Shown here one piece after another: positions 25,813 to 52,995 of a stretch of DNA of 64,000 nt. A program made the position numbers and the translations under genes. A model generated the notes under the pieces. That model was not told the DNA's origin, searched no databases, and worked only from the letters and a program-made list of their open reading frames with translations. Positions within the stretch are counted from its first letter, which is position 1, and each line of letters opens with the position of its first letter. The stretch is from Candidatus Dojkabacteria bacterium HGW-Dojkabacteria-1 (lineage in GTDB: Bacteria > Patescibacteriota > Dojkabacteria > SC72), in contig PHAO01000001.1 in NCBI GenBank assembly GCA_002840365.1, positions 652,360 through 716,359 of the forward strand, given 5' to 3'.

Positions 25813-25814
25813 AC

Positions 25815-26312: not shown

Positions 26313-26313
26313 A

Positions 26314-27129: not shown

Positions 27130-27144
27130 TTGAAAAGAATTAGG

Positions 27145-28200
27145 TTAAATAAGTTCTTCCCAAGATTTTTGTACTTTTTCGAGCAAATCAATGTGATCTA
27201 ACATCGATGCTGTTCCTCTTGCAACTGCAGAGAGTGGATCATCTACTATTTTAACGGGTATATTTAATTCTTCCATCCAAAATTCATCCAAACCTTTGAT
27301 TAATGCTCCACCACCAGCAACATGTATTCCATCATTGTATATATCCTTAAGAAGTTCTGGTGGAGTATCTTCTATTGCATCCTTTACTGCTTCAGTTATT
27401 TGACCCAAAGAAACCATAATAGCTTCTCTAACCTCTGTACTACTAAACTTGATTGATTTTGGAAGACCTGTTAACAAATCCCTTCCTTGAAGAGTAATCT
27501 CCTTTTCCTCTTTCATAGGAGATGCTGAGCCTATCTCTATCTTTACATCTTCAGCAGTTCTTTCTCCGATAAGGATGTTGTATTTATCTCTTACATAGTT
27601 CACTACATCTTGGTTCATCTCATCCCCAGCTATTCTTACAGTATTATCTACAACAATATCTCCTAAAGAAAGCACAGCTATACCAGTTGTACCACCTCCA
27701 ATATCCACTATCATACTTCCTGATGCTTCCTCTATTGGCAATCCTACTCCAATTGCGGCAGCCATAGATTCTTCTACAATAAAGACATCTCTTGCTCCAG
27801 CAGTTTTTGCGGCATCAATTACGGCTTGCCTTTCCACTTCTGTAACAGACGATGGCACTCCTACTACTACTCTTGGCTTTGGTATTTTGAAACCTTTTAC
27901 ATAGTTTTTGTGTGCACTATTAATAAAATGGTGAATCATAGCCTGAGTAGTATCAAAATCTGAGATTACTCCATCTTTTAATGGCCTAACTGCAACAATG
28001 TTTGCAGGTGTTCTACCAATCATCTCCCTTGCCTGTTGTCCAACAGCCAATACAAGCTTTGATCTTTTATCTATAGCAACAACAGAAGGTTCTGATACAA
28101 CAATACCTTCACCACGAAGATATACCATCGTGTTTGCAGTACCTAAATCTATTCCTAGATCATATGTAAATATTTCCCAAACAGAATCAAAAAGAGACAT
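27145..28200 (-). CDS. mreB: Rod shape-determining protein MreB (actin homolog)
   Basis: GIDLGTANTMVY phosphate-1, DIGGGTTGIAV phosphate-2, and GGGALIKGL adenosine motif. Confidence 0.9.
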   Translation of the reverse strand: MSLFDSVWEIFTYDLGIDLGTANTMVYLRGEGIVVSEPSVVAIDKRSKLVLAVGQQAREMIGRTPANIVAVRPLKDGVISDFDTTQAMIHHFINSAHKNYVKGFKIPKPRVVVGVPSSVTEVERQAVIDAAKTAGARDVFIVEESMAAAIGVGLPIEEASGSMIVDIGGGTTGIAVLSLGDIVVDNTVRIAGDEMNQDVVNYVRDKYNILIGERTAEDVKIEIGSASPMKEEKEITLQGRDLLTGLPKSIKFSSTEVREAIMVSLGQITEAVKDAIEDTPPELLKDIYNDGIHVAGGGALIKGLDEFWMEELNIPVKIVDDPLSAVARGTASMLDHIDLLEKVQKSWEELI

Positions 28201-34466: not shown

Positions 34467-34494
34467 TAAAGAGGTCTTTATGACCTCTTTTTTC
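34467..34494 (+). terminator. Rho-independent terminator after rplL
   Basis: AAAGAGGTC-ttta-GACCTCTTT stem followed by TTTTCTTT. Confidence 0.6.
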
Positions 34495-34503
34495 TTTATA
34501 TAT

Positions 34504-34534
34504 ATTCGACAATACATACTAATACAAAGTATAA
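34504..34534 (+). promoter_or_regulatory. Candidate promoter of the 7TM/ATP-grasp operon
   Basis: TTCGAC at 34504-09, a 19-nt spacer, then TATAAT at 34529-34, about 38 nt upstream of the 34572 start. Confidence 0.3.
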
Positions 34535-34571
34535 TGATGCGGGAATATTCTAATTTTTCAATGTATTATAT

Positions 34572-35237
34572 ATGTTTGAAACTTCAGGCTTAACAGAATG
34601 GATATTACAACATGGAGTATCAAAAATGGCACTTGAGTTACTCATAGCAGTAGCTGTTTTAGCTACTATTGTCAGTATAGCAAGATACGTTATTGGCTCT
34701 AAAACATATGGTATATATGCACCAATACTTTTGGCAATTGCATATTCATATACTGGATTAAAATATGGCCTAGCTATTACCATTATTGTAATACTAACAT
34801 CCCTACTCTCTTACAATGTACTCAAGAGAATTAGAATGCACTACATTACTCGTATTGCTACAAACTATACAATTTTAGCAATGGTATTAGTTCTTTTCTT
34901 TGTGTTGATAGATATGTTTGGATTGGGGTTAGAGAATATGGCAAATATACCACCACTAGCTTTCATCTCTATCGCAGCTCTCTCAGACTTTTTCATCAAA
35001 CAGTATGTTAAAAAATCTTTTGCAGGTTCAATATTAACCTTAACAGGAACAATATTAGTGGCTGCAATCGGATGGTTTGTAATAACTAGGGAAATTATCT
35101 CTGAATATATGATAAACAATCTTTGGGTTCTCCCCTTGCTAACATTAGTAAACTTACTACTCGGTCAGTTTACAGGTTTAAGAATCAAGGATTACTTTAG
35201 ATTCAAACTATCAAACAGAGATGATTCATCTAATTAA
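34572..35237 (+). CDS. Stand-alone 7-transmembrane protein (7TM module of the kind found fused to inactive transglutaminase in ATP-grasp-associated systems)
   Basis: A 221-aa protein with seven hydrophobic helices (ALELLIAVAVLATIVSIA; IYAPILLAIAYSY; LAITIIVILTSLLSY; ILAMVLVLFFVLIDMF; PLAFISIAALSDFFI; ILTLTGTILVAAIGWFVI; LWVLPLLTLVNLLLGQF). Its 3' end overlaps the next ATP-grasp gene by 17 nt. Confidence 0.65.
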   Translation: MFETSGLTEWILQHGVSKMALELLIAVAVLATIVSIARYVIGSKTYGIYAPILLAIAYSYTGLKYGLAITIIVILTSLLSYNVLKRIRMHYITRIATNYTILAMVLVLFFVLIDMFGLGLENMANIPPLAFISIAALSDFFIKQYVKKSFAGSILTLTGTILVAAIGWFVITREIISEYMINNLWVLPLLTLVNLLLGQFTGLRIKDYFRFKLSNRDDSSN

Positions 35238-36696
35238 CAACAAATACAAACAGGTTTTAGGATTAAACAGAAGGAACCAAGAGTATGTAAGACCTTATAA
35301 TTCTCCCTCTGCGAAAGCTATTGCAGATAACAAGATTCTTACAAAGAGAATTCTCAAAAAAGAATTCATTCAGACTCCTGATGTATACAAATTAATTAGA
35401 ACAAAAAAACAACTACAGTTTCTAGATTGGGATAGCCTTCCAAAGAGTTTTGTAATAAAGCCTAACAAGGGAACAGGTGGAAACGGAATAATAGTCTTCT
35501 ATGGAAAAAAGAAAGGCCAAGAGGCTTGGATTAGGCCTAATGGCACCATTATGAGTAAAAGAGATATCATTCTTCACATTGAAAATATTCTCGAAGGAAG
35601 ATTCTCAATGGGTTCGAAAAACGACATTGCAATAATAGAAGAAAGAATAAAGACCGATCCACTCCTTAAGCAGTACTCTTACAAAGGTGTTCCTGATATT
35701 AGAATAATCTGTTTTAATCAGGTCCCAGTAATGGGAATGCTTAGATTACCTACTAAAAGGTCAAATGGTACTGCAAACTTACATTCAGGTGCAATATGTA
35801 CAGGTATAGATATGGAATCAGGAATAACTACCTACTCTATGCATATGCAAGCATCAGCTTTTAGATCAGATTCATATAAACTAATAGATTCAACATTAGA
35901 TTTACAAGAAAACAAACAATTAAGTGGAGTACAAATACCATATTGGAATGAAATGTTAGAGATTGCACTTAAGTGTCAAAAAGCTAGTAGACTTGGGTAT
36001 ATAGGGGTAGACATAGCAATAGATGCAGAAAAAGGTCCAGTAGTATTTGAAATAAATGCAAGACCAGGACTTGGCATACAAGTCGCTAATCAAGCAGGTC
36101 TAAGATGGAGATTAGAAAAGGTTAAAGATTTGAAAATAAAGAGCATAAAGCATGGAATTAGAGTTTCAAAAAATCTCTTTGGTGGTGAAATTGAGGAAAG
36201 TATTGAAGCAATTAGTGGTAGAAAAGTTCTAAATATTACAGAAAGAATATCTGTATTTAACAAAGGTACTGATGTATTAAAAATTAAAAGAACAAAAAAT
36301 ATTAAAAAGGAAATAGTTAAAGCATTCATGGATACAGGAATACTTACATCAAGAATCTCCTCTACCCTTGCAAACAGAATAGGGTATCTAAAAGCTACTA
36401 AAGATTTCGAAAACTTTGATATTCCTAAGAGATTTACCAGTTTTAAGGAGGCTCAGGAATATATTGATAAGTATGAGAAAGAGATATGTGAACATCCTGA
36501 TATAAAAAGATTAGCTAAAATCCTAGAAGATGGTGAGATAAAGATAAGGCCTGTTTTTGATATACCAATAAAAATTTCTGATACAGTTAAAGTAACAGAA
36601 TTTGTATCTACGGACGCAGAAGATAGTACATATCAAGTAGTACTTGGTAGATCTGATCTTTCTGGATATTTGATTGATACAAGCAATACCTTCTAA
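35221..36696 (+). CDS. ATP-grasp amidoligase 1: alpha-L-glutamate-ligase-like (RimK-related) domain fused to a C-terminal retropepsin-like (ATP-dependent Zn-protease-type) domain
   Basis: N-terminus LGLNRRNQEYVRPYNSPSAKAIADNKILTKRIL...FVIKPNKGTGGNGIIVF...DIRIICFN...FEINARPGLGIQ is typical of the alpha-L-glutamate ligase-like family. The C-terminal roughly 180 aa end in YQVVLGRSDLSGYLIDTSNTF, which resembles the retropepsin-like domain of these systems. Confidence 0.75.
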   Translation: MIHLINNKYKQVLGLNRRNQEYVRPYNSPSAKAIADNKILTKRILKKEFIQTPDVYKLIRTKKQLQFLDWDSLPKSFVIKPNKGTGGNGIIVFYGKKKGQEAWIRPNGTIMSKRDIILHIENILEGRFSMGSKNDIAIIEERIKTDPLLKQYSYKGVPDIRIICFNQVPVMGMLRLPTKRSNGTANLHSGAICTGIDMESGITTYSMHMQASAFRSDSYKLIDSTLDLQENKQLSGVQIPYWNEMLEIALKCQKASRLGYIGVDIAIDAEKGPVVFEINARPGLGIQVANQAGLRWRLEKVKDLKIKSIKHGIRVSKNLFGGEIEESIEAISGRKVLNITERISVFNKGTDVLKIKRTKNIKKEIVKAFMDTGILTSRISSTLANRIGYLKATKDFENFDIPKRFTSFKEAQEYIDKYEKEICEHPDIKRLAKILEDGEIKIRPVFDIPIKISDTVKVTEFVSTDAEDSTYQVVLGRSDLSGYLIDTSNTF

Positions 36697-36714: not shown

Positions 36715-37695
36715 ATGCAAAAAACTTACGAACAATATTTACAAGAAGCAGGAAACGTACATCTTGCCTACTATATTGAAGCTGCAGATATTTTAGGAAT
36801 TAAATACGAAATAGTTAAGAAATCCTTAATGGCTAGATTTGAATACAACAACAGACACTGGTTTATCATTAATACTGCAACACCTCTTACTAATACAACA
36901 AGTACGACTATAGCTAAAAGAAAAAATCTTACTAATGAGGTATTAGCGAAAGCAGGAATTGCAGTACCAAAACAGGTACCACTAAGAGATAAGAAAGATG
37001 CAGTAAAGTTTTTTGATGAATATAAAAATATTGTCATAAAGCCATCTCAACAACTTGGAGGGATAGGCGTTACCCTACTTCCCAAAGATAAGAGACAGGT
37101 AGAAAAAGCCTTTAAGCATGCTCTCTCAAAATCAAAATCAGGAGATACAGCAAAAGTAATAGGAGAAGAATTCATAGAAGGAGAAAATTATAGACTTCTG
37201 GTTGTTGGTGATTCTGTTGTAGGCATTGTAAGAAGAAAGGCAGCATTTGTCATAGGTAATGGAAAGGATAATATTAAAAAATTGATTGAAGAGAAGAATA
37301 CTTTAAGAAAACAAAATATGCTTAAACCAATTCTCATAGATAACGAGGTAAAGCTGAGATTGGAAAATTTAAAAATAAATCTAAGATATATTCCAAAAGA
37401 TGGTGAGGAAGTTTTATTAAGATATAACTGTAACCTAACAACTGGTGGTACTACACAAGAGTGTGCTAGTGAGGCACATCAGTACTATAAAGATTTAGCT
37501 ATTAATGCTGTAAAAGCAATTGGTACACAGTTTGGTGGAGTAGATATAATTACTCCTGATATTACACAACCTGCCAAATGTGGTGTGAATGAAATAAACT
37601 ACAACCCTGGACTTCGTTTACACTATAAGGCAGACGAAGGAGAGGCCGTAAAGGTTGCTGTTCCAATAATGGAATATATAGTAAATAATATTTAA
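36715..37695 (+). CDS. ATP-grasp amidoligase 2: cyanophycin-synthetase-like ATP-grasp (G-domain only, no Mur-ligase domain)
   Basis: ILGIKYEIV...FIINTATPLTNTTSTTIAKRKNLTNEVLAKAGIAVPK, VIKPSQQLGGIGVTL, GENYRLLVVGDSVVGIVRRKAAFVIGNGKDNIKKLIEEKN, and EINYNPGLRLH. The pattern parallels the CphA N-terminal ATP-grasp region. Confidence 0.75.
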   Translation: MQKTYEQYLQEAGNVHLAYYIEAADILGIKYEIVKKSLMARFEYNNRHWFIINTATPLTNTTSTTIAKRKNLTNEVLAKAGIAVPKQVPLRDKKDAVKFFDEYKNIVIKPSQQLGGIGVTLLPKDKRQVEKAFKHALSKSKSGDTAKVIGEEFIEGENYRLLVVGDSVVGIVRRKAAFVIGNGKDNIKKLIEEKNTLRKQNMLKPILIDNEVKLRLENLKINLRYIPKDGEEVLLRYNCNLTTGGTTQECASEAHQYYKDLAINAVKAIGTQFGGVDIITPDITQPAKCGVNEINYNPGLRLHYKADEGEAVKVAVPIMEYIVNNI

Positions 37696-37705
37696 TGCCC
37701 AAAAC

Positions 37706-39400
37706 ATGTCAAAAACTATACAAGGTTTAAATCTAGAATCACAATTTACAACAGTAAAGATAGAATTAAAAGGTAAAGATATTGGGCAAATAACAAAGCT
37801 TCTAGACACTATTAGCTCTTTTCACCCTATTTTCTTTAAAGAATATATTCTCTCAAGTGAAGAATTAAGCATTCGTTCAAAGCTTCCTGCAATATGGAGA
37901 GAATCTGATGAATATATTCAAAAGCTCTCAAGTGGAGACATTACATATGAGAAAGCATATGAAGGAGTTGTTAATACAGTAATTACTAAAAGAGTTAAGT
38001 CCATGTCTACAATTCCCCTACTACATGCTGCTCATAATAAGAATATTGAAACAAGCTTAGCAGTTATAAATAGAAACATTGTGGAAGGATATGAACTTGG
38101 ATATAGCAATACTTTTAACAGATACTATGTAATAGGCTGTGGTAAAGGATCACAAATAACAGGTTCTATTGCTTCAAGTAAAGATGCCGCTATAGCACAA
38201 AAAATACAGAGAGATAAATGGTCTACAAATACCATAATAGAAAGATTAGGATTACCAATGCCAAAGTGGCAGATATTGGATAAAGAGAGTGACATAGAAA
38301 AGGTTTGGAAGGAGTATGAGAAGCCAGTCGTTATTAAGCCCACTGGTTTAACAGGTGGTAAAGGAGTAACAGTAGGAATAGAGAATATTGAGAATGCAAA
38401 GAAAGCTTTTAATAGGGCAAAAAAAGAGACAAGCAATAAAGTTCGGTCCCCTTGGCAAACTAAAATTATGATTCAGGAACAGGTCGCAGGAGAAGATTAC
38501 AGGCTTTTAGTTATAAATGGTAAGTTAGAAGTAGCTACAAAAAGAATACCCGCATTTGTTGTTGGAGATGGGAAGAAAAACATTAAGGAATTAATTGAAG
38601 AAACAAATTCTGATCCAAGAAGAGATGTCACAAATCCAGCTCACATACTCAAACCAATTGTAATTGATGAGCCTCTGTTAGATCTATTAGAAAAAAACAA
38701 ATTAACTCTTGAATCTATCCCAGAGAAAGATATGAAAGTCTTTGTAAGAAATATCGCAAGTATGAGTCAAGGTGGAATAACAGAAGATTTTACAGATAAT
38801 GTAAGTAAGGAAATTAAAATTTTGGTAGAGAGTATTGCTCAATCAATACATGCATTTACACTTGGAGTAGATGTAATGTGTAAGGATTCGTCTAAACCAC
38901 TTACTAAAGAAAATGGCGCTATACTAGAGATTAATACTATGCCAGAGGCATATTTGAATCTTTTCCCTGTATTGGGTAAAGAAAGAGGATACGTTGCAGA
39001 CAGATTTGTCGATGGACTACTTTCAGAAAATAAATGTCAAAAGTATGTAGTTGTGGGACAAAGTATTAATGACATACCAACAACATTAAGGAAATGGTGG
39101 AGACAAGACAAGAATCAAAATATTGGAGAGATAATTGAAGACAGATACTATGTAAATGGCCTTCAGATTAACGATGGACTAGAAAGATGGCATGCATTTG
39201 AAGCAATTAAGTGTAACGCTTCATTAGATACAATAATATTACACCATAGAGATTGGAATAATGTTAAAGAGGATGGTTTGGGTTTTGACCATATTAATAC
39301 ACTGTATATAACAAAAGATATGGCTAGAGAGAAAGAGTACATGAAGTTAATGAAGAAATATAAAGGTATGAAGTTAATAGATAATATTAAAATAATATAA
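37706..39400 (+). CDS. ATP-grasp amidoligase 3: CphA-like ATP-grasp with about 190-aa N-terminal and about 130-aa C-terminal extra domains
   Basis: Central region PVVIKPTGLTGGKGVTVGIEN, GEDYRLLVINGKLEVATKRIPAFVVGDGKKNIKELIEETNSDPRR, and GAILEINTMPE. The N-terminal domain precedes the ligase core as in CphA. No Mur-ligase motifs. Confidence 0.7.
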   Translation: MSKTIQGLNLESQFTTVKIELKGKDIGQITKLLDTISSFHPIFFKEYILSSEELSIRSKLPAIWRESDEYIQKLSSGDITYEKAYEGVVNTVITKRVKSMSTIPLLHAAHNKNIETSLAVINRNIVEGYELGYSNTFNRYYVIGCGKGSQITGSIASSKDAAIAQKIQRDKWSTNTIIERLGLPMPKWQILDKESDIEKVWKEYEKPVVIKPTGLTGGKGVTVGIENIENAKKAFNRAKKETSNKVRSPWQTKIMIQEQVAGEDYRLLVINGKLEVATKRIPAFVVGDGKKNIKELIEETNSDPRRDVTNPAHILKPIVIDEPLLDLLEKNKLTLESIPEKDMKVFVRNIASMSQGGITEDFTDNVSKEIKILVESIAQSIHAFTLGVDVMCKDSSKPLTKENGAILEINTMPEAYLNLFPVLGKERGYVADRFVDGLLSENKCQKYVVVGQSINDIPTTLRKWWRQDKNQNIGEIIEDRYYVNGLQINDGLERWHAFEAIKCNASLDTIILHHRDWNNVKEDGLGFDHINTLYITKDMAREKEYMKLMKKYKGMKLIDNIKII

Positions 39401-39402
39401 AT

Positions 39403-40356
39403 ATGAACTACTTAATTATAGATAAAAGACAAAGAGTCGAAACAGGTAATGAGGACAAAATCGCCACTGCCAATCTAAGACTCATGGAAGAGTTGGATAA
39501 AAAAGGTATACCCCACTCTCTTGCATACAATGATGAACTAGAATTTCAGTTCATTGATGGTGAAACAGTGATAAAAGCGAAAGGTGAAGATATTCGAAAA
39601 TACACTCATATACTGCTTAGAGGGCATGCTTTACATAACGAAATGGAGTATCAATTCAAGAGATACATAGTGGACTATATAGATGAACATAATAGAAAAA
39701 ATCCAAATGAAAAGGTATTAATACAAAATAGTGAAGCTATGAAAAGGTTTCCTTACTACAATAAGATAGCTCTTGCCCTATTCTGCTCTATCAATGATAT
39801 ACCTTACTTCAATACATATTTTAGAACAGATGGAAATTATTTAGCACACAGGGACATACTCGAAGCTTTTCCTCTTATAATTAAGGAGTATGCAGGAGCA
39901 AATAGAGTTGAAATTATTGATGGTAAGGAAAAAATTAAAAAGAACGTCTTTAAAATAAGTAATGAAGATGATTATAGACAGGAGTATTTAAAGGATTTAG
40001 ATCACTCTAGGTTTTTCATACAGGAATTCTCTGATAGCGGTAAGGATATGAGAATCTTCGTAAAATTAGGCAAAGTCATTGGTGGATGGAAGAGAGAGGC
40101 AGTGGATGGTTTCATGACTGTAAAGGATGGAAATTACACTATGTACAACGAACCCGAGAAGGAAATAAAGGAATTTGCTGAAAATGTTGCACAAAAACTC
40201 TCAGCAGATTTTGTAGCAGTAGATATTATGTATATGGGAGACAAACCCTTACTACAGGAGATTAGTTATCACCCAGGTTTCAAAGCATACGAAACAAAAA
40301 TAGAGGGAGAACCTGTAAATATAGCAGAAGCAATAGTAACAGCATTTAAGGAGTAA
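39403..40356 (+). CDS. ATP-grasp amidoligase 4: RimK/glutathione-synthetase-like
   Basis: FFIQEFSDSGKDMRIFVKLGKVIGGWKREAVDGFMTV...AENVAQKLSADFVAVDIMYMGDKPLLQEISYHPGF is a RimK-like C-terminal ATP-grasp core. The start is 2 nt after the previous gene. Confidence 0.7.
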   Translation: MNYLIIDKRQRVETGNEDKIATANLRLMEELDKKGIPHSLAYNDELEFQFIDGETVIKAKGEDIRKYTHILLRGHALHNEMEYQFKRYIVDYIDEHNRKNPNEKVLIQNSEAMKRFPYYNKIALALFCSINDIPYFNTYFRTDGNYLAHRDILEAFPLIIKEYAGANRVEIIDGKEKIKKNVFKISNEDDYRQEYLKDLDHSRFFIQEFSDSGKDMRIFVKLGKVIGGWKREAVDGFMTVKDGNYTMYNEPEKEIKEFAENVAQKLSADFVAVDIMYMGDKPLLQEISYHPGFKAYETKIEGEPVNIAEAIVTAFKE

Positions 40357-41523
40357 CTAAATACCTGCTTTCTTAAATATTGATTTCCAAAGTTCTTTGG
40401 TAGGAACTATGTGAGCATTCGGAATTAACCCTTCATCTACCCATTCACATTGATTAAAATCAATCTTTCCTGCATAGAGCTTTTCATACAATGAAGGATC
40501 TTTTTCAAGTTGCCTAATAACCTTTCTAAATCCTCTGAAATACACAATATCCTTTGCATATATTCCTGGATAACTAGTATCCCCTAGTCCTCTTTTTACC
40601 CTATATACAACATCAAAAGCTGATCTCCTTGGAAGTGCACCTAATACACTGTTATACAACTCTCTAAACGTTAGTTCTTCTCCAATATATATTGCCCATA
40701 CAAGTGCTGCTTTCTCTTTTAACCATCTAAGAGTTAACAAATCCATATTAGATTCATTCCATGTAGCCAAACCCTCCTCGACATCTAGATAACTGGGTAA
40801 ATTGGCTTTTGCTAAAGCATCAAAACCACTCTTCGCACCATTAGTAGACCTAAGAACATGGGTACCAACTTCATGTACAATTGTTTTTCTTAGTTTAAAC
40901 TTTGATCTCTCTATATTTGGATCTAAGAGTACCTGCTTTGTCTTTATACCAACCTTAGCTCCATTTTTTGCAATATTCATAGATTTAGCAACACTCCATC
41001 CATCTAAATATAATTCCTTAAACACAATATCAAAAACCTCTTGTATATCATCAAACCTTAGCATATCCTCAGGTTTAGCCTTTTTCATATTTGCCAACTT
41101 ATATGCATCTACCTTACCCCTTAATACTCTAGTTGCATTTCTAAATAGCTTTGGAGATGGCTTGGAATATTTCTTGTATGAGAGATCTGTAACTAATTCG
41201 TTATTACCTACTGAATGCATAAGGTCGCTAGAGTCTTTTTTAGATTCGATAAGTTGGATATAGAAGTCGGAAATTCTAGGATCTACATCAGTAATTTCTT
41301 TCAATGAAGAAAGTTTCTTAAAAATCTCTTCATTTTTGTTTTTAATTAATCTATATGTAAATTGCGGCTCATAGTTATCTGAGTCGAAAAATTTCTTTTT
41401 CTCTACATCTAAATTAGTAGGAGTAAACACTAAGCCAATGGGAATTCTTAATTGTGAGAGGTGATTTGTAACCTCCTCGAGCTTCATTGTTGATTTATCC
41501 TTTTTAGAGAAGATATTTACCAT
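40357..41523 (-). CDS. DUF1704 / QEGLA-motif zinc metallopeptidase (MATCAP-like carboxypeptidase family)
   Basis: TIVHEVGTHVLRSTNG (HExxxH-type zinc site) and downstream DVEEGLATWNE (QEGLA-like motif). About 390 aa, typical for this family. Convergent with the ATP-grasp operon and co-directional with the MreB paralog upstream. Confidence 0.65.
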   Translation of the reverse strand: MVNIFSKKDKSTMKLEEVTNHLSQLRIPIGLVFTPTNLDVEKKKFFDSDNYEPQFTYRLIKNKNEEIFKKLSSLKEITDVDPRISDFYIQLIESKKDSSDLMHSVGNNELVTDLSYKKYSKPSPKLFRNATRVLRGKVDAYKLANMKKAKPEDMLRFDDIQEVFDIVFKELYLDGWSVAKSMNIAKNGAKVGIKTKQVLLDPNIERSKFKLRKTIVHEVGTHVLRSTNGAKSGFDALAKANLPSYLDVEEGLATWNESNMDLLTLRWLKEKAALVWAIYIGEELTFRELYNSVLGALPRRSAFDVVYRVKRGLGDTSYPGIYAKDIVYFRGFRKVIRQLEKDPSLYEKLYAGKIDFNQCEWVDEGLIPNAHIVPTKELWKSIFKKAGI

Positions 41524-41540
41524 TACAAGAATAAAAAATA

Positions 41541-42557
41541 TTAATTATACCCCTTGTTAAAAGAGAATACTCTTTCTCCTGTCACCATTAATTCTAATGC
41601 TATACCAGTACCCTTTACAACACAATACATAGGTTCATCTGCAACATGGGCAGGGACACCTATTGCCTTTGTAAATAGCTTATCAAGGTTTCTTAATTTT
41701 GAAGTACCACCACTCATAACCATTCCCCTGTCCATAATATCTGCTGAAAGCTCAGGTGGAGTTTTCTCCAATACACCCTTAATACTATTAATAATACTTA
41801 ACAATGGTCTTTTCACTGCAAATGCAACATCATTGGAATCAATATTAATTGCTTTTGGAAGACCAGCCCCTACATCCCTTCCTCTAACTTCCATACTCTT
41901 CGGGTTCTTTATTTCAATTGCACTTCCAATCCTTATCTTAATATTCTCTGCAGTTTGCTCTCCAATCAATACACCCTTCTTCTTACGCATATAGTTTATT
42001 ATTGCCTCATTAATAGCATCTCCAGCAATCCTTAGTGAGTCATACTCTACAATACCATCCAAAGAAAGAACCGCTATCTCTGCAGTACCACCTCCTAAAT
42101 TCACAATCATATTCCCTGAAGAAGTCTCTATTGGTAGACCAGCACCAAGTGCTGCTAAAAGAGGTTCTGGTAACATAGTAACTTGCCTTGCACCTGCATT
42201 ACTTGCTGCTTTAATAACTGCTCTTTGCTCAACAGTGGTAATACCTGCAGGTACACTTATCACAACCTCTGGTTTAAAAAATCTAGATTTACCAAGAGCT
42301 TTATTCAAAAAATACTTAAGCAAAGCTTCCGTTACTCTAGAGTCTGCGATTACACCATTTCTCATTGGCCTTCTTGCAACAATATTCTCAGGAGTCTTAC
42401 CAATCATTCTTTTAGCTTCAGAACCTACTGCTATAACCTTATAATTATTTACATCTATTGCAACAACAGTTGGCTCAACAAAGGATATCCCTTCCCCTTG
42501 GACAAATACTATTGAATTAGCAGTACCTAAATCTATACCTAACTTCTTTCCTAACAT
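41541..42557 (-). CDS. Second MreB-family actin homolog (paralog of mreB at 27145)
   Basis: LGIDLGTANSIVFVQGEGI, NLGGGTAEIAVLSL, and MSGGTSKLRNL actin-fold motifs. About 45-50% identity to the first MreB by eye. The next gene on the same strand, 17 nt downstream, is the DUF1704 peptidase. Confidence 0.8.
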   Translation of the reverse strand: MLGKKLGIDLGTANSIVFVQGEGISFVEPTVVAIDVNNYKVIAVGSEAKRMIGKTPENIVARRPMRNGVIADSRVTEALLKYFLNKALGKSRFFKPEVVISVPAGITTVEQRAVIKAASNAGARQVTMLPEPLLAALGAGLPIETSSGNMIVNLGGGTAEIAVLSLDGIVEYDSLRIAGDAINEAIINYMRKKKGVLIGEQTAENIKIRIGSAIEIKNPKSMEVRGRDVGAGLPKAINIDSNDVAFAVKRPLLSIINSIKGVLEKTPPELSADIMDRGMVMSGGTSKLRNLDKLFTKAIGVPAHVADEPMYCVVKGTGIALELMVTGERVFSFNKGYN

Positions 42558-42612
42558 GACTCGATTATATCACTAAGATACTGTTTTTAGAAAAGTTAGT
42601 TAAATTAGAAAT

Positions 42613-46140: not shown

Positions 46141-46509
46141 CTATCTTTGTTGAAGATATCCTATTACAATACCTGCAACTACTCCAATACCTGTAGTAAA
46201 CCCCACTATTGTACATCCACATCCATGAGCAGGATCAGGATGTTGACCTGCCACTAAATTTTTTCTTTCAAGATTGTAATATATGTTTGTCAGGATAAGG
46301 CCAATACCAAATCCCGCAACAGCCCCTATTCCTGCATATATACCAACTAACTCGAAATTAGTCTCAAGTAAGCTCTGAGTCCAAGGCTTTGATAGCTCAT
46401 ATGACTCTGATACGACTTGATTACCAAACATCTCACTCATTATTTCAAGTGTTCTGTTTTCTGCTTCTGAAGCTATTTCTATATTGTTACTTAATATTTC
46501 TTGGTTCAC
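46141..46509 (-). CDS. Hypothetical small membrane protein (two TM helices)
   Basis: Acidic N-terminal half, then two Gly-rich TM helices (LVGIYAGIGAVAGFGIGLILTNIYY; TIVGFTTGIGVVAGIVIGYL) separated by HPDPAHGCGC. Confidence 0.5.
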   Translation of the reverse strand: MNQEILSNNIEIASEAENRTLEIMSEMFGNQVVSESYELSKPWTQSLLETNFELVGIYAGIGAVAGFGIGLILTNIYYNLERKNLVAGQHPDPAHGCGCTIVGFTTGIGVVAGIVIGYLQQR

Positions 46510-46555
46510 TATAGGGGCAAATTATATCACATTTCATGGTATAATAAAGGCTGCT

Positions 46556-49417
46556 ATGAGTGAAGAAAGTATAAAAATAAAGGGTGCAAGAGAACACAAT
46601 CTTAAAAACATTTCTCTTGAAATACCTAAAAACAAATTAATAGTATTTACAGGTGTTTCAGGAAGTGGGAAATCATCCCTGGCTTTTGATACTCTGTATG
46701 CAGAAGGACAAAGAAGATATGTTGAATCCCTCTCCTCTTACGCTAGACAATTTTTGGGGTTGATGCACAAACCAGATGTAGATTCCATTACGGGTCTTTC
46801 CCCAGCAATCTCAATTGATCAAAAAACTACCAGTAGCAATCCTAGGTCAACTGTAGGAACCATTACAGAAATATATGGATATCTCAGATTGTTGTTTGGT
46901 CATATAGGAAAAGCATACTGTCCAAACTGTGGAACATTGATTTCTTCACAAAGTATACAAGAAATTTCTGAACAAATATTGAAAAAAGTCTCAAAGGAAG
47001 ACGCAAGATTTCAAGTATTAGCGCCATTAGTTAAAGGTCGTAAAGGAGAGTACAAGGCACTCCTATCAAAACTTCTTACAAAAGGTTTCTCAAGAGTAAT
47101 TATCGATGGGAATTTGTATCACCTAGATGATGTAGAGAACCTAAATTTAGAATCTAATGTAAAGCATACAATTGATTTAGTAGTTGACAGACTGGACAGT
47201 CAAATGCTAAAAGACGACAAAGATTCGTTCTCTAAAAGACTTAACGACTCATTAGAGTTAGCTACTTCCATGTCTGATGGAGAGGTAAAAATGAAAATTG
47301 ATGAAGAAGAATTCTTTTTCTCAGAGAAAAATACCTGTTTTAATTGTCAAATATCATATCCAAAAATCTCACCTGCATCATTTTCTTTTAACTCACCAGA
47401 AGGTGCATGTTCAAAGTGTGCTGGCTTAGGAAGTATAAATGAGATAGATATTACAAAAACATATAATCCTAATTTAACAATAAACGAGGGAGGAATATTC
47501 CCATGGGGAAATAGGACTACAAAAGATTCTTGGACAAAAAGAATCTTGGATAGTGTAGCGAAAGAGCATAATTTCGATCTTAAAACTCCAATTGCGAAAT
47601 ATCCTAAAGAGATTTTTGACTTAATATTTTTTGGATATGGAGCTAAAGATTCTTATAAAATCCTTTATACAAACAGATTCGGAAGAGAAAGAGTTTACGA
47701 TACTCAATATGAGGGAGTTGTAAGTGAATTAGAAAGACTTTACAAGGAAACAGATTCTGAATTCAGAAGGGCTGAAATAGAGAAATATATGACAGAAAGA
47801 ACTTGTGATATGTGTAAGGGAAATAGGCTCAAACCTTACTCTCTCGGTGTAAGAATTGGAAAGTTGAATATAATTGAGATGACAGATTTGACAATAGAAA
47901 GACTAAAAAAATATTTAAAGAACCTCGAACTAGAAGGAGGTAGTAAAGAAATTGCCAAACCAATATTAAAAGAGATAAATAGTAGATTGGAATTTCTCTC
48001 TAATGTTGGGCTAACATATATAACCCTATCTAGAAAAGCGAACACCCTCTCTGGTGGAGAATCACAGAGAATTAGATTAGCTTCACAAATTGGAACTGGA
48101 CTCTCAGGTGTTTTGTATGTATTAGACGAACCTTCAATAGGGTTACATCCAAGAGATGTAGACAAACTTCTAACTTCGATTGAATCACTTAGAGATACTG
48201 GTAATACTGTTGTTGTAGTTGAACATGATGAAGAAACAATGGAAAGGGCTGACTGGATAGTCGATATTGGACCAAAGGCAGGTGAACATGGAGGAGAAAT
48301 TGTAGCTGAAGGTAAGATAAAAGATATCAAGCAGTCTAACTCTTTAACTGCGAAATACCTTAAAAAAGAGCTTCAGGTAGGGCAAGAGATAGGGAGACCC
48401 CTACTACTCACAAATAGCACATCAGAGAAGCTTTCTTTGAAAGGTGTTCGTACTCATAATCTTAAAGATGTAAATATTGATATCCCACTGAAAACTTTAA
48501 CCTGTATTACAGGAGTGTCAGGAAGTGGTAAGTCTTCTTTAATTAATGACACACTTTATCCTGCCTTAATGAATATAAAGATGCATGGTAAACAAATAGA
48601 GGGACAATACAACGAGTTAAATGGCGTAGAAAACATTGATAAAGTAATAGGAATTGATCAAAAGCCAATAGGAAAGACACCTAGATCTAACCCTGCAACA
48701 TATACAGGCTTGTTTACATATATTAGGGAAATATTTGCACAAACCCAAGAAGCCAGAACAAGGGGATACAAGGCAGGAAGATTTAGCTTCAATGTTAAGG
48801 GAGGAAGATGCGAAAAATGTAAAGGAGACGGACAAATACGCGTAGAAATGCAATTTCTACCTGATATGTATATCCTTTGTGATGAATGTAATGGTAAAAG
48901 GTATAATAATGATGCTTTGAGTATTGACTACAAGGGAAAAAATATCGCAGATATTCTTGAGATGACCGTAGACAATGCCTTAGATTTTTTCAAAGATATT
49001 CCATCTCTAAAAAATAAGCTGAAAATTTTAGAAGAGGTTGGACTTGGATATCTCAGATTAGGACAGTCAGCTCTTACACTCTCAGGGGGAGAATCACAGA
49101 GAATTAAACTAGCAAAAGAACTTTCTAAACAAACTAGAGGGCATACTCTATACATTCTTGACGAACCAACTACAGGTCTTCACTTCTATGATGTAGACAA
49201 GCTTCTCACATTGGTAAAGAAACTAGTTTCGAAAGGAAATACTGTACTCATTATCGAGCATAATCTGGATGTAATTAGATATGCAGATTGGATAATAGAT
49301 CTTGGTCCTGAAGGAGGTGAAAAAGGAGGAGAAATTGTTGCAGAGGGTAACCTAGAAGACATAATGAATAACCCAAAGAGCTGGACAGGTATGTGGCTTA
49401 AGAGAAAATTACTCTAA
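46556..49417 (+). CDS. uvrA: Excinuclease ABC subunit A
   Basis: Start taken at [24 protein letters not shown]. Two ABC modules ([12 protein letters not shown] and [12 protein letters not shown]), zinc fingers (CPNCG, CFNCQ...[14 protein letters not shown]), and signature LSGGESQRI twice. Confidence 0.9.
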
Positions 49418-51606: not shown

Positions 51607-52995
51607 TTAATACACAATTCTTGGATCAAATCCCCAATGCTGAGCAGCCTTTGCAAGTGCGGATTCGGGATGTTCAACAATCCACTTCTTAATATCCCCT
51701 TTCTCCATAGCAATATCTCTAGCTTGTACCACAGCCTCTACACCGGCTTCAATGCCCCATGGATGTCCTAATGTTCCACCACCTGCTTGTATAACTAAAT
51801 CTTCACCAAGTTGTGTAATTGATTCCCCTATAGTTCCAGCGTGAAGACCACCTGAAGCAGTATGCCAAACACCCTTCATACCAAACCAATTTTGACCAAG
51901 GGTAATATGCGATTCTGGTGTAATATCAGCCTGTAGAGCTTCTTGTATTAGTTTTGGTTCACCATAGTTTTCCATTTTTGTTTTAGGAGCACCACCATGT
52001 AACGAATCTACACCAAGTAGTCTCATTATCTTTGCAATAACGACCATAGACATAGAGAAATCTAATATCTCCCCCTTATCATGTACCCCAGGACCAGATT
52101 CTCTATCAAGTAAGCCATGCATTGCTCTGTGAGCATGTATAGCCAATCCAGGATTGTGTTTTCTCATGGTTTGTACTGCTGTAAAACCAGTGGTAACAAC
52201 ATCTATCATCATCCACCTACCACCTTCCTTCTTAATCATATCTGCCCTATCAAGCATAATATCTAAATCTGAGTGAGTAACATTACATAGATAGAATTTC
52301 TTTTTACCAGATTTCTTTTCAATATCTCTTTGTACTGCATGAACTCTCTTACATCTATCCTCAAACTTGTTAAAGTAAAGGCTTGTTAAATTTTCATCAT
52401 CCTTTATACCTTGATATTCACCATTTGCAGCAGTAAAAAGAACTTTCGCTAATTCTGCTTGTTCTTTTGCTGTCCTACCTACCTTAGGTTTAGGTACTGT
52501 ACAAAGCATTGGCCCACTTGGTAGTTCCATAAAGTCTCTAACTCCCTTAATACCAAACATTGGTCCAGGAAAGCTTTTGACAAGACTTTCAGGAAATCTT
52601 ACATCGATAAGTCTAAATGCTTTAAGCATTTTCATACTATCAATATTTCCTGCAATTCCTGCTAATATCCCTGACATATTACCCTCTTCAAAGATTTCCT
52701 TCTTATATGCTATCTTGAATGTTTTTGTTTTAGGATCTAAATCATATGCGATAGCTTTAAGTTTGTCAGCCATTTTTATACCGGAGTTTTTACCTGCATA
52801 TACCTCAGTCCATGTACCTGTTGAGCTTTCAGCTGCACAACTTGCTGCAGCATCCTCAAACTTATCATCAGAGATACCATCTGCCAATTCAATATCTAGG
52901 TATGTAATTAAGTAATCTTTGTCAGGATTTTTTGGTTTCCAACCTTTAGGGGCTAGATAATCGAGCTGAACAGCCACGGGCAGTAAAAAAAACAA
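51607..52995 (-). CDS. rbcL: Ribulose-1,5-bisphosphate carboxylase/oxygenase large subunit, form II/III-like
   Basis: GIKDDENLTS (GxDFxKDDE), VPKPKVGRT (catalytic KPK), GGGTLGHPWGIEAG, and dimer-interface residues. No small-subunit gene is adjacent. Confidence 0.85.
   Translation of the reverse strand: MFFLLPVAVQLDYLAPKGWKPKNPDKDYLITYLDIELADGISDDKFEDAAASCAAESSTGTWTEVYAGKNSGIKMADKLKAIAYDLDPKTKTFKIAYKKEIFEEGNMSGILAGIAGNIDSMKMLKAFRLIDVRFPESLVKSFPGPMFGIKGVRDFMELPSGPMLCTVPKPKVGRTAKEQAELAKVLFTAANGEYQGIKDDENLTSLYFNKFEDRCKRVHAVQRDIEKKSGKKKFYLCNVTHSDLDIMLDRADMIKKEGGRWMMIDVVTTGFTAVQTMRKHNPGLAIHAHRAMHGLLDRESGPGVHDKGEILDFSMSMVVIAKIMRLLGVDSLHGGAPKTKMENYGEPKLIQEALQADITPESHITLGQNWFGMKGVWHTASGGLHAGTIGESITQLGEDLVIQAGGGTLGHPWGIEAGVEAVVQARDIAMEKGDIKKWIVEHPESALAKAAQHWGFDPRIVY

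What the first reader, a model, noticed from the sequence alone, without database searches (positions are those of the whole stretch)
40357..42557. MATCAP-like (DUF1704/QEGLA) metallopeptidase co-transcribed with a second MreB paralog, convergent on the ATP-grasp ligase operon
Seen in sequence: on the minus strand, a second actin-like MreB gene (41541-42557) is followed 17 nt later by a 388-aa protein with HEVGTH and EEGLA motifs. Its stop abuts the stop of ATP-grasp ligase 4, in convergent orientation. Established knowledge: the DUF1704 family includes the human tubulin detyrosinating carboxypeptidase MATCAP (KIAA0895L). Tubulin C-terminal tyrosination and glutamylation are performed by ATP-grasp enzymes of the TTL/TTLL family. 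Bacterial QEGLA proteins are reported near alpha-L-glutamate-ligase-like ATP-grasps. Inference, speculative: this could be a bacterial analogue of the cytoskeletal C-terminal-tail code, with ATP-grasp ligases adding residues and a MATCAP-like carboxypeptidase removing them from a cytoskeletal protein (the MreB paralog), a membrane protein tail, or S6-like substrates. The primary elongasome mreBCD-mrdA operon elsewhere in the window (25815-28200) shows this MreB copy is accessory.
Basis: inference. Interest (0 to 1): 0.85.

Follow-up and report, generated by a model that had tools for sequence, protein, structure and literature searches.

The report
MATCAP-like peptidase of ATP-grasp ligase system
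The genes are real, but this MATCAP-like zinc peptidase belongs with the neighbouring membrane-linked peptide-ligase operon, a partnership already predicted in bacteria. Its position behind a second MreB gene is a rearrangement found only in this lineage, not evidence of a bacterial "tubulin code" on MreB.

Summary
Observation confirmed. On the minus strand, mreB2 (41541-42557) is followed 17 nt later by a 388-aa MATCAP/DUF1704 protein (40357-41523). It has HEVGTH and EEGLA motifs, and its stop abuts the stop of the fourth ATP-grasp gene. The organism is a Candidatus Dojkabacteria (WS6, CPR) bacterium.

The peptidase is a sound family member: Pfam 103 bits, invariant HExxxH and Glu, AF2 pLDDT 94, and human MATCAP as the only significant PDB fold match.

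Its functional partner is the convergent operon, which encodes a 7TM protein, an RloC-type ATP-grasp fused to a RimB-like retropepsin domain, two cyanophycin-synthetase-type ATP-grasps and one RimK-type ATP-grasp. Elsewhere MATCAP is co-directional with, or fused to, the same ATPgrasp_ST ligase.

MreB sits next to MATCAP only in Dojkabacteria, where the whole uvrA-rplJ region is syntenic. No MreB occurs in 32 loci outside the class. MreB2 C-termini are non-acidic and their last residues vary.

So the ligase/peptidase writer-eraser logic is supported and was already predicted. MreB2 as substrate is not supported. A better candidate is the cytoplasmic tail of the 7TM protein, which ends in oligo-Glu in sister CPR lineages.

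This is a new variant of a known kind, of moderate interest.

The parts
40357..41523 (-). MATCAP/DUF1704-family zinc carboxypeptidase (388 aa; alternative start M13 at 41487). It has no signal peptide or TM segment. HExxxH is at H217-E218-H222 and the EEGLA motif is at 249-253.
   Evidence: PF08014 at 103.5 bits. 7z5g (human MATCAP) phmmer E 8e-14. H217, E218, H222 and E250 are invariant in 40 diverse homologues. AF2 pLDDT 94.2. Foldseek against PDB gives human MATCAP at E 6e-11 and TM 0.58-0.68, with the next hit at E 0.1.
41541..42557 (-). mreB2, a second canonical MreB paralogue. It lies directly upstream of the peptidase gene and is probably co-transcribed with it.
   Evidence: PF06723 at 431 bits and NF010539 at 432.7 bits. 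It is 46% identical to MreB1. It scores 342 bits to Geobacillus MreB 7zpt. It lies upstream on the same strand in 69-70 of 70 informative Dojkabacteria loci, with its stop overlapping or abutting the MATCAP start in many.
42564..42569 (-). TATAAT (-10-like) hexamer 6 nt upstream of the mreB2 ATG, inside the 55-bp divergent intergenic region shared with the PEGA-domain gene. It suggests a leaderless or very short-leader mreB2-MATCAP transcript.
   Evidence: Read directly from the sequence. This is a consensus match only. The promoter scan, which requires a -35 hexamer as well, did not list it.
34572..35237 (+). 7TM membrane protein (7TM_transglut family, RloB-like but without the transglutaminase domain). 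Its basic-then-acidic C-terminal tail ...RFKLSNRDDSSN is predicted to be cytoplasmic. The gene overlaps the next gene by 17 nt.
   Evidence: PF14402 E 9e-18. NF052267 RloB partial match over residues 22-213. Tail comparison.
35221..36696 (+). ATP-grasp ligase 1: an RloC-type 'alpha-L-glutamate ligase-like' domain (ATPgrasp_ST) fused to a C-terminal RimB/RloA-like retropepsin domain that retains DTG (FMDTGILTS).
   Evidence: PF14397 at 230.7 bits. TIGR02291 at 283.5 bits against a cutoff of 314.2, and RloA3 E 1e-6 for residues 364-491. hhalign of the C-terminal domain against a stand-alone RimB-like protein gives 96.9% probability, E 1.4e-10.
36715..37695 (+). ATP-grasp ligase 2, of the cyanophycin-synthetase / GshAB / Ngg type.
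   Evidence: Partial matches to NF010623 at 214 bits and TIGR02068 at 212 bits. Pfam RimK and GSH-S_ATP.
37706..39400 (+). ATP-grasp ligase 3, of the cyanophycin-synthetase type, with N- and C-terminal extensions (564 aa).
   Evidence: Partial match to NF010623 at 249.9 bits over residues 142-531.
39403..40356 (+). ATP-grasp ligase 4, RimK-like. Its stop codon abuts the stop codon of the peptidase gene in convergent orientation.
   Evidence: PF08443 E 6e-9. Weak matches to MptN and rimK_fam. Sequence.
34468..34535 (+). rplL terminator-like hairpin (34468-34490), followed by a promoter-like site TCGACA-18-TATAAT (34506-34535) that would start the 7TM-ligase operon.
   Evidence: Consensus scan, 11 of 12 matches. 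No functional evidence.

Best explanation
The 388-aa ORF is a cytoplasmic zinc carboxypeptidase of the MATCAP/DUF1704 family. It is the hydrolytic ('eraser' or length-setting) arm of the membrane-associated peptide-ligase system encoded by the convergent operon. That operon encodes a 7TM protein, an RloC-type ATP-grasp fused to a RimB-like retropepsin domain, two cyanophycin-synthetase-type ATP-grasps and one RimK-type ATP-grasp.

Proposed mechanism. The ligases use ATP to add amino acids, most likely acidic ones, one at a time to a C-terminus held at the membrane. That C-terminus is either the cytoplasmic tail of the 7TM protein or a free oligopeptide. The retropepsin-like domain cuts within such chains. 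The MATCAP-like enzyme removes residues from the C-terminal end. This parallels RimB acting against RimK on ribosomal protein S6, and MATCAP/CCP acting against TTL/TTLL on tubulin.

Position behind mreB2. The likely ancestral CPR gene order is 7TM -> ATPgrasp_ST -> MATCAP on one strand. In Dojkabacteria the 7TM-ligase block is inverted relative to MATCAP, which is now expressed from the mreB2 promoter. MreB2 is a transcriptional neighbour, not the likely substrate.

Shown here: family membership, intact metal ligands, the fold, the conserved ligase neighbourhood and the fusions, the lineage limit of MreB adjacency, and the nature of the MreB2 and 7TM tails. Inferred: catalytic activity, the chemistry of the chain, the acceptor, and the rearrangement scenario.
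For: 1. Family and active site. PF08014 at 103.5 bits. HExxxH and the EEG glutamate are invariant in 40 homologues spanning 23-72% identity. AF2 pLDDT is 94. Human MATCAP is the only significant PDB fold match.
2. Rosetta-stone fusions. Single proteins of 780-815 aa carry ATPgrasp_ST at the N-terminus and MATCAP at the C-terminus (loci L093-L099).
3. Ligase neighbourhood. Of 23 non-Dojkabacteria loci of at least 7 kb, 20 have an ATP-grasp adjacent or fused to MATCAP. The usual order is [Transglut_core][holin_4_2-like][7TM_transglut][ATPgrasp_ST][MATCAP], with or without extra RimK- or CphA-like ligases.
4. Interchangeable erasers. In L127 a stand-alone RimB-like retropepsin occupies the MATCAP slot.
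5. Other bacteria. Rhizobial replicons carry FGase - QEGLA - 'glutathione synthase' (ATP-grasp) triplets. In Photobacterium the QEGLA gene and the adjacent GshB-like gene are induced 27-fold and 38-fold at low salinity.
6. Dojkabacteria. The ligase operon is convergent on MATCAP in 67 of 69 informative species.
7. Enzymology of relatives. The human MATCAP-family enzymes TMCP1 and TMCP2 remove C-terminal Tyr and Glu and shorten polyglutamate chains (PMC10499314). RimB and RloA retropepsins cleave poly-Glu (PMC12239564).
8. Against MreB2 as substrate.
Against: There is no biochemistry for any bacterial DUF1704 protein. Within Dojkabacteria, mreB2-MATCAP adjacency is as universal as the ligase adjacency (69-70 of 70 loci), and in many species the mreB2 stop overlaps or abuts the MATCAP start by -4 to +3 nt. 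A functional tie to MreB2, though not necessarily tail modification, therefore cannot be excluded. Rlo-system mutants in P. aeruginosa do show cell-shape defects. Four ligases from three ATP-grasp subfamilies suggest a heteropeptide product whose nature is unknown. The Dojkabacteria 7TM tail does not end in Glu. Three distant MATCAP loci (L094, L103, L119) show no recognisable ligase neighbour.
Confidence: 0.7

Rival explanations
1. One reading: a bacterial cytoskeletal tail code. The ATP-grasp ligases add residues to the C-terminal tail of the MreB2 paralogue, and the MATCAP-like carboxypeptidase removes them.
For: mreB2 and the peptidase gene are adjacent and probably co-transcribed in essentially all Dojkabacteria. 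MreB2 has a conserved short C-terminal extension, GERxFSFN[KR]. MATCAP acts on a cytoskeletal protein in eukaryotes.
Against: No MreB lies next to MATCAP in any of 32 loci outside Dojkabacteria, in three further Microgenomates loci that carry MATCAP, or in rhizobia. The whole uvrA-rplJ region is syntenic in the class, so adjacency there is weak evidence. In the most divergent Dojkabacteria a Wzy_C-like gene separates mreB2 from MATCAP. MreB2 tails are neutral or basic (..DFRR..KSIT..KGYN) and end in no conserved acidic or aromatic residue. No window ligase matches the TTL family.
Confidence: 0.05
2. Tail code on the 7TM membrane protein. The cytoplasmic C-terminal tail of the 7TM protein is the acceptor that the ligases extend and that the two peptidases trim. 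This would control the activity or interactions of the membrane protein.
For: In sister CPR lineages (Microgenomates group), the 7TM proteins of 7TM-ATPgrasp_ST-MATCAP operons end in oligo-Glu. Of the 120 best family hits, 98 end in at least one Glu and 86 in at least two, with a mode of 3-4. Every tail listed with a Glu end fits this pattern. The terminal Glu run persists even when the preceding tail varies (..NSQEEE..PGLEE, RHIEEEE). This matches the Glu-Glu C-terminus of S6 that RimK extends (RimK-RpsF polyglutamylation; the Glu-Glu terminus itself is recalled from memory). The 7TM and ligase-1 genes overlap. Legionella RloB-type proteins never end in two or more Glu (0 of 120). Their locus encodes a stand-alone retropepsin-like protein (annotated 'RimK/LysX family protein', 152 aa) and no MATCAP.
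Against: In Dojkabacteria themselves the acidic patch is capped by 1-4 other residues (..KEDDK..KENVSK..RDDSSN in the window). Microgenomates 7TM variants without terminal Glu still keep ATPgrasp_ST and usually MATCAP. The sequences counted are phylogenetically clustered. An acidic tail could simply be a docking site.
Confidence: 0.25
3. Functional coupling to cell-shape control without tail modification. The ligase/peptidase system makes or remodels an envelope-associated peptide or polymer. Co-expression of the peptidase with MreB2 coordinates this with MreB2-guided wall growth.
For: Rlo operon mutants of P. aeruginosa have altered cell length and width, osmotic sensitivity and ampicillin sensitivity (PMC12239564). 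The Dojkabacteria neighbours are envelope genes: a PEGA-domain protein, a GT2, and a Wzy_C-like insert. mreB2-MATCAP coupling is tight.
Against: There is no comparative support outside one class. Tight gene packing is the rule throughout this small genome. The envelope neighbours are not conserved with MATCAP elsewhere.
Confidence: 0.15
4. Housekeeping peptidase unrelated to either neighbour, for example general peptide recycling.
For: A few distant homologues have no recognisable ligase neighbour (L094, L103, L119).
Against: Fusions with ATPgrasp_ST and the widespread conserved operons argue strongly for a dedicated partner.
Confidence: 0.04

Closest known systems
Human MATCAP1/TMCP1 (KIAA0895L) and TMCP2 (KIAA0895), tubulin carboxypeptidases (PDB 7z5g, 7z6s)
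   Same: Same Pfam family (PF08014). Same HExxxH motif plus the EEG glutamate as metal ligands. Same fold (Foldseek E 6e-11, TM 0.58-0.68). The family is known to remove C-terminal Tyr and Glu and to shorten polyglutamate chains. The opposing enzymes are ATP-grasp ligases in both cases.
   Different: Only about 17-19% identity in the structural alignment. No microtubule or tubulin partner. The bacterial partners are a 7TM protein and RloC-, CphA- and RimK-type ligases, not TTL/TTLL. Substrate and specificity are untested.
[quoted passage not shown]
   Same: DUF1704 family member next to an ATP-grasp gene. Examples are the rhizobial FGase-QEGLA-GshB-like triplet and the Photobacterium pair induced by low salinity.
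   Different: The window protein scores 115 bits against a cutoff of 338.65, so it is not a member of that equivalog. Its motif is EEGLA rather than QEGLA. The partner ligase type differs and a 7TM gene is present. The rhizobial proteins are about 630 aa, with an extra N-terminal region.
RloABC of Pseudomonas aeruginosa (PMC12239564)
   Same: A 7TM_transglut membrane protein, an ATPgrasp_ST/TIGR02291-type ligase and a retropepsin-like peptidase in one locus. The physiological substrate is unknown. The system is linked to envelope, osmotic and cell-shape phenotypes.
   Different: In the window the 7TM protein lacks the periplasmic inactive-transglutaminase domain. The retropepsin is fused to the cytoplasmic ligase (RimB-like, not secreted). 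Three further ATP-grasps and a MATCAP-like peptidase are added.
RimK/RimB and ribosomal protein S6
   Same: An ATP-grasp adds Glu to a protein C-terminus that already ends in Glu, and a retropepsin-like peptidase removes the added residues. This is the writer/eraser logic, and one window ligase is RimK-like.
   Different: No S6 gene is linked. A membrane 7TM partner is present. The second eraser is a metallocarboxypeptidase.
7TM-ATPgrasp_ST-MATCAP operons of Microgenomates-group CPR bacteria, and ATPgrasp_ST-MATCAP fusion proteins
   Same: Same three core components. The ligase carries the same RimB-like C-terminal domain. uvrA lies nearby.
   Different: All genes there are on one strand, with one or two ligases, no MreB, and 7TM tails that end in oligo-Glu. 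The retropepsin-like domain usually has NTG in place of DTG. In Dojkabacteria the ligase block is inverted, expanded to four ligases, and MATCAP follows mreB2.

Membership tests
MATCAP / DUF1704 (Pfam PF08014) | Profile match above the curated threshold | tested here: met
   103.5 bits against a cutoff of 27, covering residues 44-364.
MATCAP / DUF1704 (Pfam PF08014) | HExxxH zinc-binding and catalytic motif | tested here: met
   H217-E218-V-G-T-H222. H217, E218 and H222 are invariant in 40 homologues.
MATCAP / DUF1704 (Pfam PF08014) | Third metal ligand, a Glu in the EEG(LA) motif | tested here: met
   E249-E250-G-L-A. E250 and G251 are invariant. The role of the motif is described in PMC10499314.
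MATCAP / DUF1704 (Pfam PF08014) | MATCAP catalytic-domain fold | tested here: met
   AF2 pLDDT 94.2 and pTM 0.91. Foldseek against PDB gives 7z5g and 7z6s at E 6e-11 to 3e-10 and TM 0.58-0.68, with the next hit at E 0.1.
MATCAP / DUF1704 (Pfam PF08014) | Carboxypeptidase activity that removes C-terminal Tyr/Glu from a protein tail | not testable with these tools
   Requires enzyme assays.
TIGR02421 QEGLA equivalog (NCBIfam) | Score above the equivalog cutoff, and a QEGLA motif | tested here: not met
   115.3 bits against a cutoff of 338.65. The motif reads EEGLA.
RloABC-type system | [quoted passage not shown] | tested here: not met
   Only the 7TM part is present (221 aa; PF14402 profile positions 57-245). 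NF052267 scores 34.8 bits against a cutoff of 900.
RloABC-type system | RloC: a cytoplasmic ATPgrasp_ST / alpha-L-glutamate-ligase-like protein next to the 7TM gene | tested here: met
   PF14397 at 230.7 bits. TIGR02291 at 283.5 bits, just under its cutoff of 314.2. The gene overlaps the 7TM gene.
RloABC-type system | RloA: a secreted retropepsin-like peptidase with a signal peptide | tested here: not met
   The retropepsin-like domain, with DTG, is the C-terminal domain of the cytoplasmic ligase, which makes it RimB-like.
   MreB2 tails read GERxFSFN[KR] followed by GYN, SIT, DFRR, SIS or EISS. They are neutral or basic and the last residue varies.
   MreB adjacency is seen only in Dojkabacteria (69-70 of 70 loci). 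It is absent from all 32 other loci, from three further Microgenomates loci that carry MATCAP, and from rhizobia.
   No TTL match at E <= 0.01 for any of the four window ligases.
MreB (PF06723) | Profile match, and for the 'elongasome' copy, linkage to mreC/mreD/PBP2 | tested here: met
   Both copies are canonical MreB (431 and 454 bits). Only MreB1 is linked to mreC and PBP2.

The most novel reading that the evidence does not exclude
CPR bacteria may run a true protein C-terminal 'tail code' on a 7TM membrane protein. Its genome-encoded cytoplasmic tail is oligo-Glu in Microgenomates-group bacteria and an acidic patch capped by 1-4 residues in Dojkabacteria. ATP-grasp writers would extend it. 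Two erasers would trim it: a RimB-like retropepsin domain and a MATCAP-like carboxypeptidase. In Dojkabacteria the carboxypeptidase might first have to uncap the tail, as detyrosination does for tubulin. The ATP-grasp/DUF1704 gene pair would then be the prokaryotic forerunner of the eukaryotic TTL(L)/MATCAP writer-eraser pair. The 7TM tail would also be the long-sought substrate class for RloC-type ligases. In Dojkabacteria, co-transcription with an MreB paralogue would tie the system to cell-shape control.
Probability: 0.22. Interest if true: 0.8.

Novelty: new variant of a known kind. Interest (0 to 1): 0.42.

Why it matters
Bacterial DUF1704/MATCAP proteins have no known biochemical function. 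The substrate of RloC-type ligases is an explicit open question: PMC12239564 notes that only RpsF and SdeA are known to be polyglutamylated in bacteria.

This locus and its relatives show that the MATCAP-type peptidase is an integral, sometimes fused, partner of a membrane-associated ATP-grasp ligase. They also point to a concrete, testable acceptor, the 7TM protein's C-terminal tail. If that is confirmed, the pairing of an ATP-grasp writer with a MATCAP eraser would predate the eukaryotic tubulin code.

The specific claim that attracted attention, modification of an MreB paralogue, is not supported. As stated, the finding should be downgraded.

Tried and rejected
I used narrower alignments A2 and A3 instead.
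- The genome-contig scan returned only Dojkabacteria, 80 loci at 50-93% identity. Outgroups had to come from the metagenome scan.
- Iyer et al. 2009 (PMC3268129) is the comparative-genomics paper that, from memory, first described these ATP-grasp/7TM/peptidase neighbourhoods. It is not held. Its content is therefore cited only as recollection.
- I tested whether 7TM variants without terminal Glu lack MATCAP. They do not. All four still have ATPgrasp_ST, three of four have MATCAP, and one has a RimB-like gene in its place. There is no simple tail/eraser correlation within Microgenomates.
- L026 and L030 seemed to lack the ligase operon downstream of MATCAP. In L026 a histidine-kinase gene and a YcaO/nitroreductase/C39/ABC cluster are inserted and the locus ends. 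This is not evidence of loss.
- PDB sequence search with the C-terminal domain of ligase 1 found nothing. Pfam hits were sub-threshold. Profile comparison with hhalign was needed.
- The plasmid search for RloB homologues gave only one useful record, from Legionella. The P. aeruginosa RloB tail could not be read.
- The promoter and terminator scans were no better than shuffled controls. They are used only as weak hints.


Full report
OBSERVATION. The window is AT-rich (about 34% GC). Close homologues carry the names Candidatus Dojkabacteria and candidate division WS6, a CPR/Patescibacteria lineage.

On the minus strand, ORF 41541-42557 encodes a 338-aa canonical MreB (PF06723, 431 bits). Seventeen nucleotides downstream, ORF 40357-41523 encodes a 388-aa protein containing IVHEVGTHVLR and DVEEGLATW. 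The peptidase stop codon (40357-40359) directly abuts the stop codon of the RimK-like ATP-grasp gene (ending at 40356) on the plus strand. A first mreB lies in an mreB-mreC-(mreD)-PBP2 operon at 23794-28200. The two MreBs are 46% identical, and both resemble crystallised MreBs.

One refinement concerns the start codon. An internal start at M13 has an AGGA box, and 375-377-aa orthologues exist. Many orthologues, however, use the M1-equivalent start, which overlaps or abuts the mreB2 stop.

WHAT THE PEPTIDASE IS. The protein matches Pfam MATCAP (PF08014) at 103.5 bits. It matches human MATCAP chains by sequence at E 8e-14. An alignment of 40 homologues down to 23% identity keeps H217, E218, H222 (the HExxxH motif) and E250-G251 (the EEG motif) invariant. 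An AlphaFold2 model built on that alignment has pLDDT 94.2. Its only significant PDB neighbours are human MATCAP 7z5g and 7z6s (E 6e-11, TM 0.58-0.68); the next hit has E 0.1.

It is not a member of the proteobacterial QEGLA equivalog TIGR02421 (115 bits against a cutoff of 338.65). The family is large, with 1,817 clusters at 50% identity below E 1e-3. The window's subfamily is essentially confined to Dojkabacteria.

THE CONVERGENT OPERON. Downstream of rplJ-rplL there is a terminator-like hairpin and a promoter-like site. The plus strand then encodes five proteins.
- A 221-aa 7TM_transglut protein without the transglutaminase domain.
- A 491-aa ATPgrasp_ST / 'alpha-L-glutamate ligase-like' protein (TIGR02291, 283.5 bits).
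- Two cyanophycin-synthetase / GshAB / Ngg-type ATP-grasps.
- A RimK-like ATP-grasp.

The C-terminal 130 residues of the first ligase form a RimB/RloA-like retropepsin domain. NCBIfam RloA3 matches at E 1e-6. There are sub-threshold Pfam PF05618 and Asp_protease hits. Profile comparison with a stand-alone RimB-like protein gives 96.9% probability, E 1.4e-10. The domain retains a DTG motif.

The locus is therefore a variant of the RloABC / RimK-RimB type of amidoligase system. In P. aeruginosa that system affects hypo-osmotic tolerance, antibiotic sensitivity, biofilm and cell morphology, and its substrate is unknown (PMC12239564).

WHICH NEIGHBOUR IS THE FUNCTIONAL PARTNER?

Within Dojkabacteria (80 GTDB species loci, 50-93% peptidase identity), the whole region is syntenic. 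The order is rplJ-rplL - 7TM - four ligases, then MATCAP - mreB2 - (TrpRS) - PEGA-domain protein - (GT2) - uvrA, with the ligase block convergent on MATCAP. mreB2 lies upstream on the same strand in 69-70 of 70 informative loci. The ligase operon is convergent in 67 of 69. Because everything is conserved there, adjacency inside the class does not discriminate between the two candidate partners.

Outside the class, the picture is clear. In 32 metagenomic loci carrying more distant homologues (23-34% identity to the query of that scan, P0122, itself 40% identical to the window protein), no MreB gene occurs at all. Of the 23 loci of at least 7 kb, 20 have an ATP-grasp directly adjacent to MATCAP or fused to it.

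The recurrent arrangement is [Transglut_core protein][holin_4_2-like 4TM protein][7TM_transglut][ATPgrasp_ST][MATCAP], with or without extra RimK- or CphA-like ligases, all on one strand. Named 7TM homologues of this type are Pacebacteria, Woesebacteria and other Microgenomates-group CPR bacteria. Loci fetched through the 7TM protein show the same thing. A second arrangement is [transglutaminase-7TM][ATPgrasp_ST-MATCAP fusion of about 800 aa].

In one locus a stand-alone RimB-like retropepsin sits exactly where MATCAP usually is. This suggests the two peptidases are interchangeable.

Rhizobial replicons carry N-formylglutamate amidohydrolase - QEGLA - 'glutathione synthase' triplets. In Photobacterium the QEGLA gene and its GshB-like neighbour are induced 27-fold and 38-fold at low salinity.

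The conserved partner of MATCAP-like proteins is therefore an ATP-grasp ligase, usually with a 7TM protein. It is not a cytoskeletal protein.

THE MreB2 HYPOTHESIS. MreB2 orthologues are highly conserved (69-99% identity). They share a short C-terminal extension, GERxFSFN[KR], followed by 3-4 variable residues (GYN, SIT, DFRR, SIS, EISS). These tails are neutral or basic, and the final residue is N, T, R, S, K, V, Q, Y, E or G. This does not resemble S6 (..EE) or alpha-tubulin (..EEY). None of the window ligases matches the TTL family. In the most divergent Dojkabacteria a Wzy_C-like membrane protein gene is inserted between mreB2 and MATCAP and overlaps the MATCAP start.

Co-transcription of mreB2 and MATCAP is likely. 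The gap runs from -4 to about +90 nt in 64 of 70 loci. A substrate relationship has no sequence support.

A parsimonious history is available. uvrA lies a few genes from the module in both Microgenomates and Dojkabacteria. In Dojkabacteria the 7TM-ligase block is inverted relative to MATCAP, which is left behind mreB2 and dependent on its promoter.

A BETTER CANDIDATE SUBSTRATE. While comparing loci, I found that the 7TM proteins of the Microgenomates-type operons end in runs of glutamate..RFRSLMEEE..RFRSLIEEEE..RHIEE(EE)..NSQEEE..PGLEE. Of the 120 best family hits, 98 end in at least one Glu and 86 in at least two, with a mode of 3-4. The terminal Glu run persists where the rest of the tail varies. 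With seven TM helices and a basic RFR motif just after the last helix, this tail should be cytoplasmic, and so within reach of the ligase and of MATCAP.

This mirrors the RimK substrate S6. Human MATCAP-family enzymes do shorten polyglutamate chains, and RimB/RloA retropepsins cleave poly-Glu. Legionella RloB-type proteins never end in two or more Glu (0 of 120). Their locus has a small stand-alone retropepsin-like gene (annotated 'RimK/LysX family protein') and no MATCAP.

The Dojkabacteria tails keep an acidic patch at the same position, but it is capped by 1-4 residues (..KEDDK..KENVSK..RDDSSN in the window). For the window itself the idea is therefore weaker. It would require uncapping, or a different chemistry that involves the three extra ligases. 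Microgenomates variants without terminal Glu also keep the ligase and usually MATCAP. I rate this a plausible and testable hypothesis at about 0.2-0.25, not a finding.

VERDICT. The general writer/eraser reading is supported, but it restates an association already embodied in family annotation (Pfam, TIGRFAM and, from memory, Iyer et al. 2009, which I could not read). The MreB 'tail code' is not supported.

The locus is a new variant of a known kind of system. It is Rlo/RimK-like, with four ligases, a fused cytoplasmic retropepsin domain, a MATCAP-like carboxypeptidase, and lineage-specific co-transcription with an MreB paralogue. Interest is moderate. Its main value is that the CPR versions suggest a concrete acceptor for an enzyme system whose substrate is unknown.

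Noticed in passing
L102-L122, L093-L099 (7TM genes); proteins P0288-P0407: 7TM_transglut proteins in 7TM-ATPgrasp_ST-MATCAP operons of Microgenomates-group CPR bacteria end in genome-encoded oligo-Glu (2-5 Glu; 86 of 120 end in at least two). Legionella RloB-type proteins do not (0 of 120). This is reminiscent of the S6 C-terminus that RimK extends.
   Followed up: partly
window 36280-36696 (ligase-1 C-terminal domain); L102-L122 orthologues: The RimB-like retropepsin domain fused to the ATPgrasp_ST ligase keeps DTG in Dojkabacteria. In most Microgenomates orthologues it reads NTG, NTS or DTK. There it is probably a catalytically dead peptide-binding domain.
   Followed up: partly
window 40354-40359: The convergent ligase-4 and peptidase genes have abutting stop codons, with no spacer and no terminator-like structure. 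The two transcription units must read into each other, so antisense overlap or transcriptional interference is possible.
   Followed up: no
window 46484-49417 (uvrA); L102-L129: uvrA lies a few genes from the 7TM/ligase/MATCAP module in both Dojkabacteria and Microgenomates. In Microgenomates a uvrC-like gene even sits between the Transglut_core and holin_4_2-like genes of the module. This looks like ancient CPR synteny of unknown meaning.
   Followed up: no
L075-L079, L089, L090 (e.g. L090:8509-10002): In the most divergent Dojkabacteria a 497-aa Wzy_C (O-antigen-ligase-like) membrane protein gene is inserted between mreB2 and MATCAP and overlaps the MATCAP start.
   Followed up: partly
window 41541-41600 (MreB2 C-terminus) and orthologues: MreB2 carries a class-wide conserved C-terminal motif, GERxFSFN[KR], that is absent from MreB1. 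MreB2 is more conserved across the class (69-99%) than the peptidase (50-93%), so it is not a decaying spare copy.
   Followed up: partly
window 42558-42612: Only 55 bp separate the divergent start codons of mreB2 and the PEGA-domain gene. A TATAAT hexamer lies 6 nt upstream of the mreB2 ATG, which suggests a leaderless or near-leaderless mRNA.
   Followed up: no
L026:12380-19449: In one Dojkabacteria species a 7TM histidine kinase gene and a YcaO / nitroreductase / C39-peptidase / ABC-transporter (RiPP-like) cluster are inserted downstream of MATCAP, where the ligase operon normally lies.
   Followed up: partly
window 51607-52995 (-): A RuBisCO large-subunit homologue (PF00016 at 198 bits) lies next to ProRS. 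This is typical of the form II/III or III-like RuBisCO known in CPR genomes.
   Followed up: partly
L123 and L124 (Sinorhizobium pSymA, Shinella plasmid): Rhizobial QEGLA proteins are about 630 aa, with an extra N-terminal region. They sit in a conserved triplet with N-formylglutamate amidohydrolase and a glutathione-synthase-like ATP-grasp, which is a different flavour of the same ligase-peptidase pairing.
   Followed up: no
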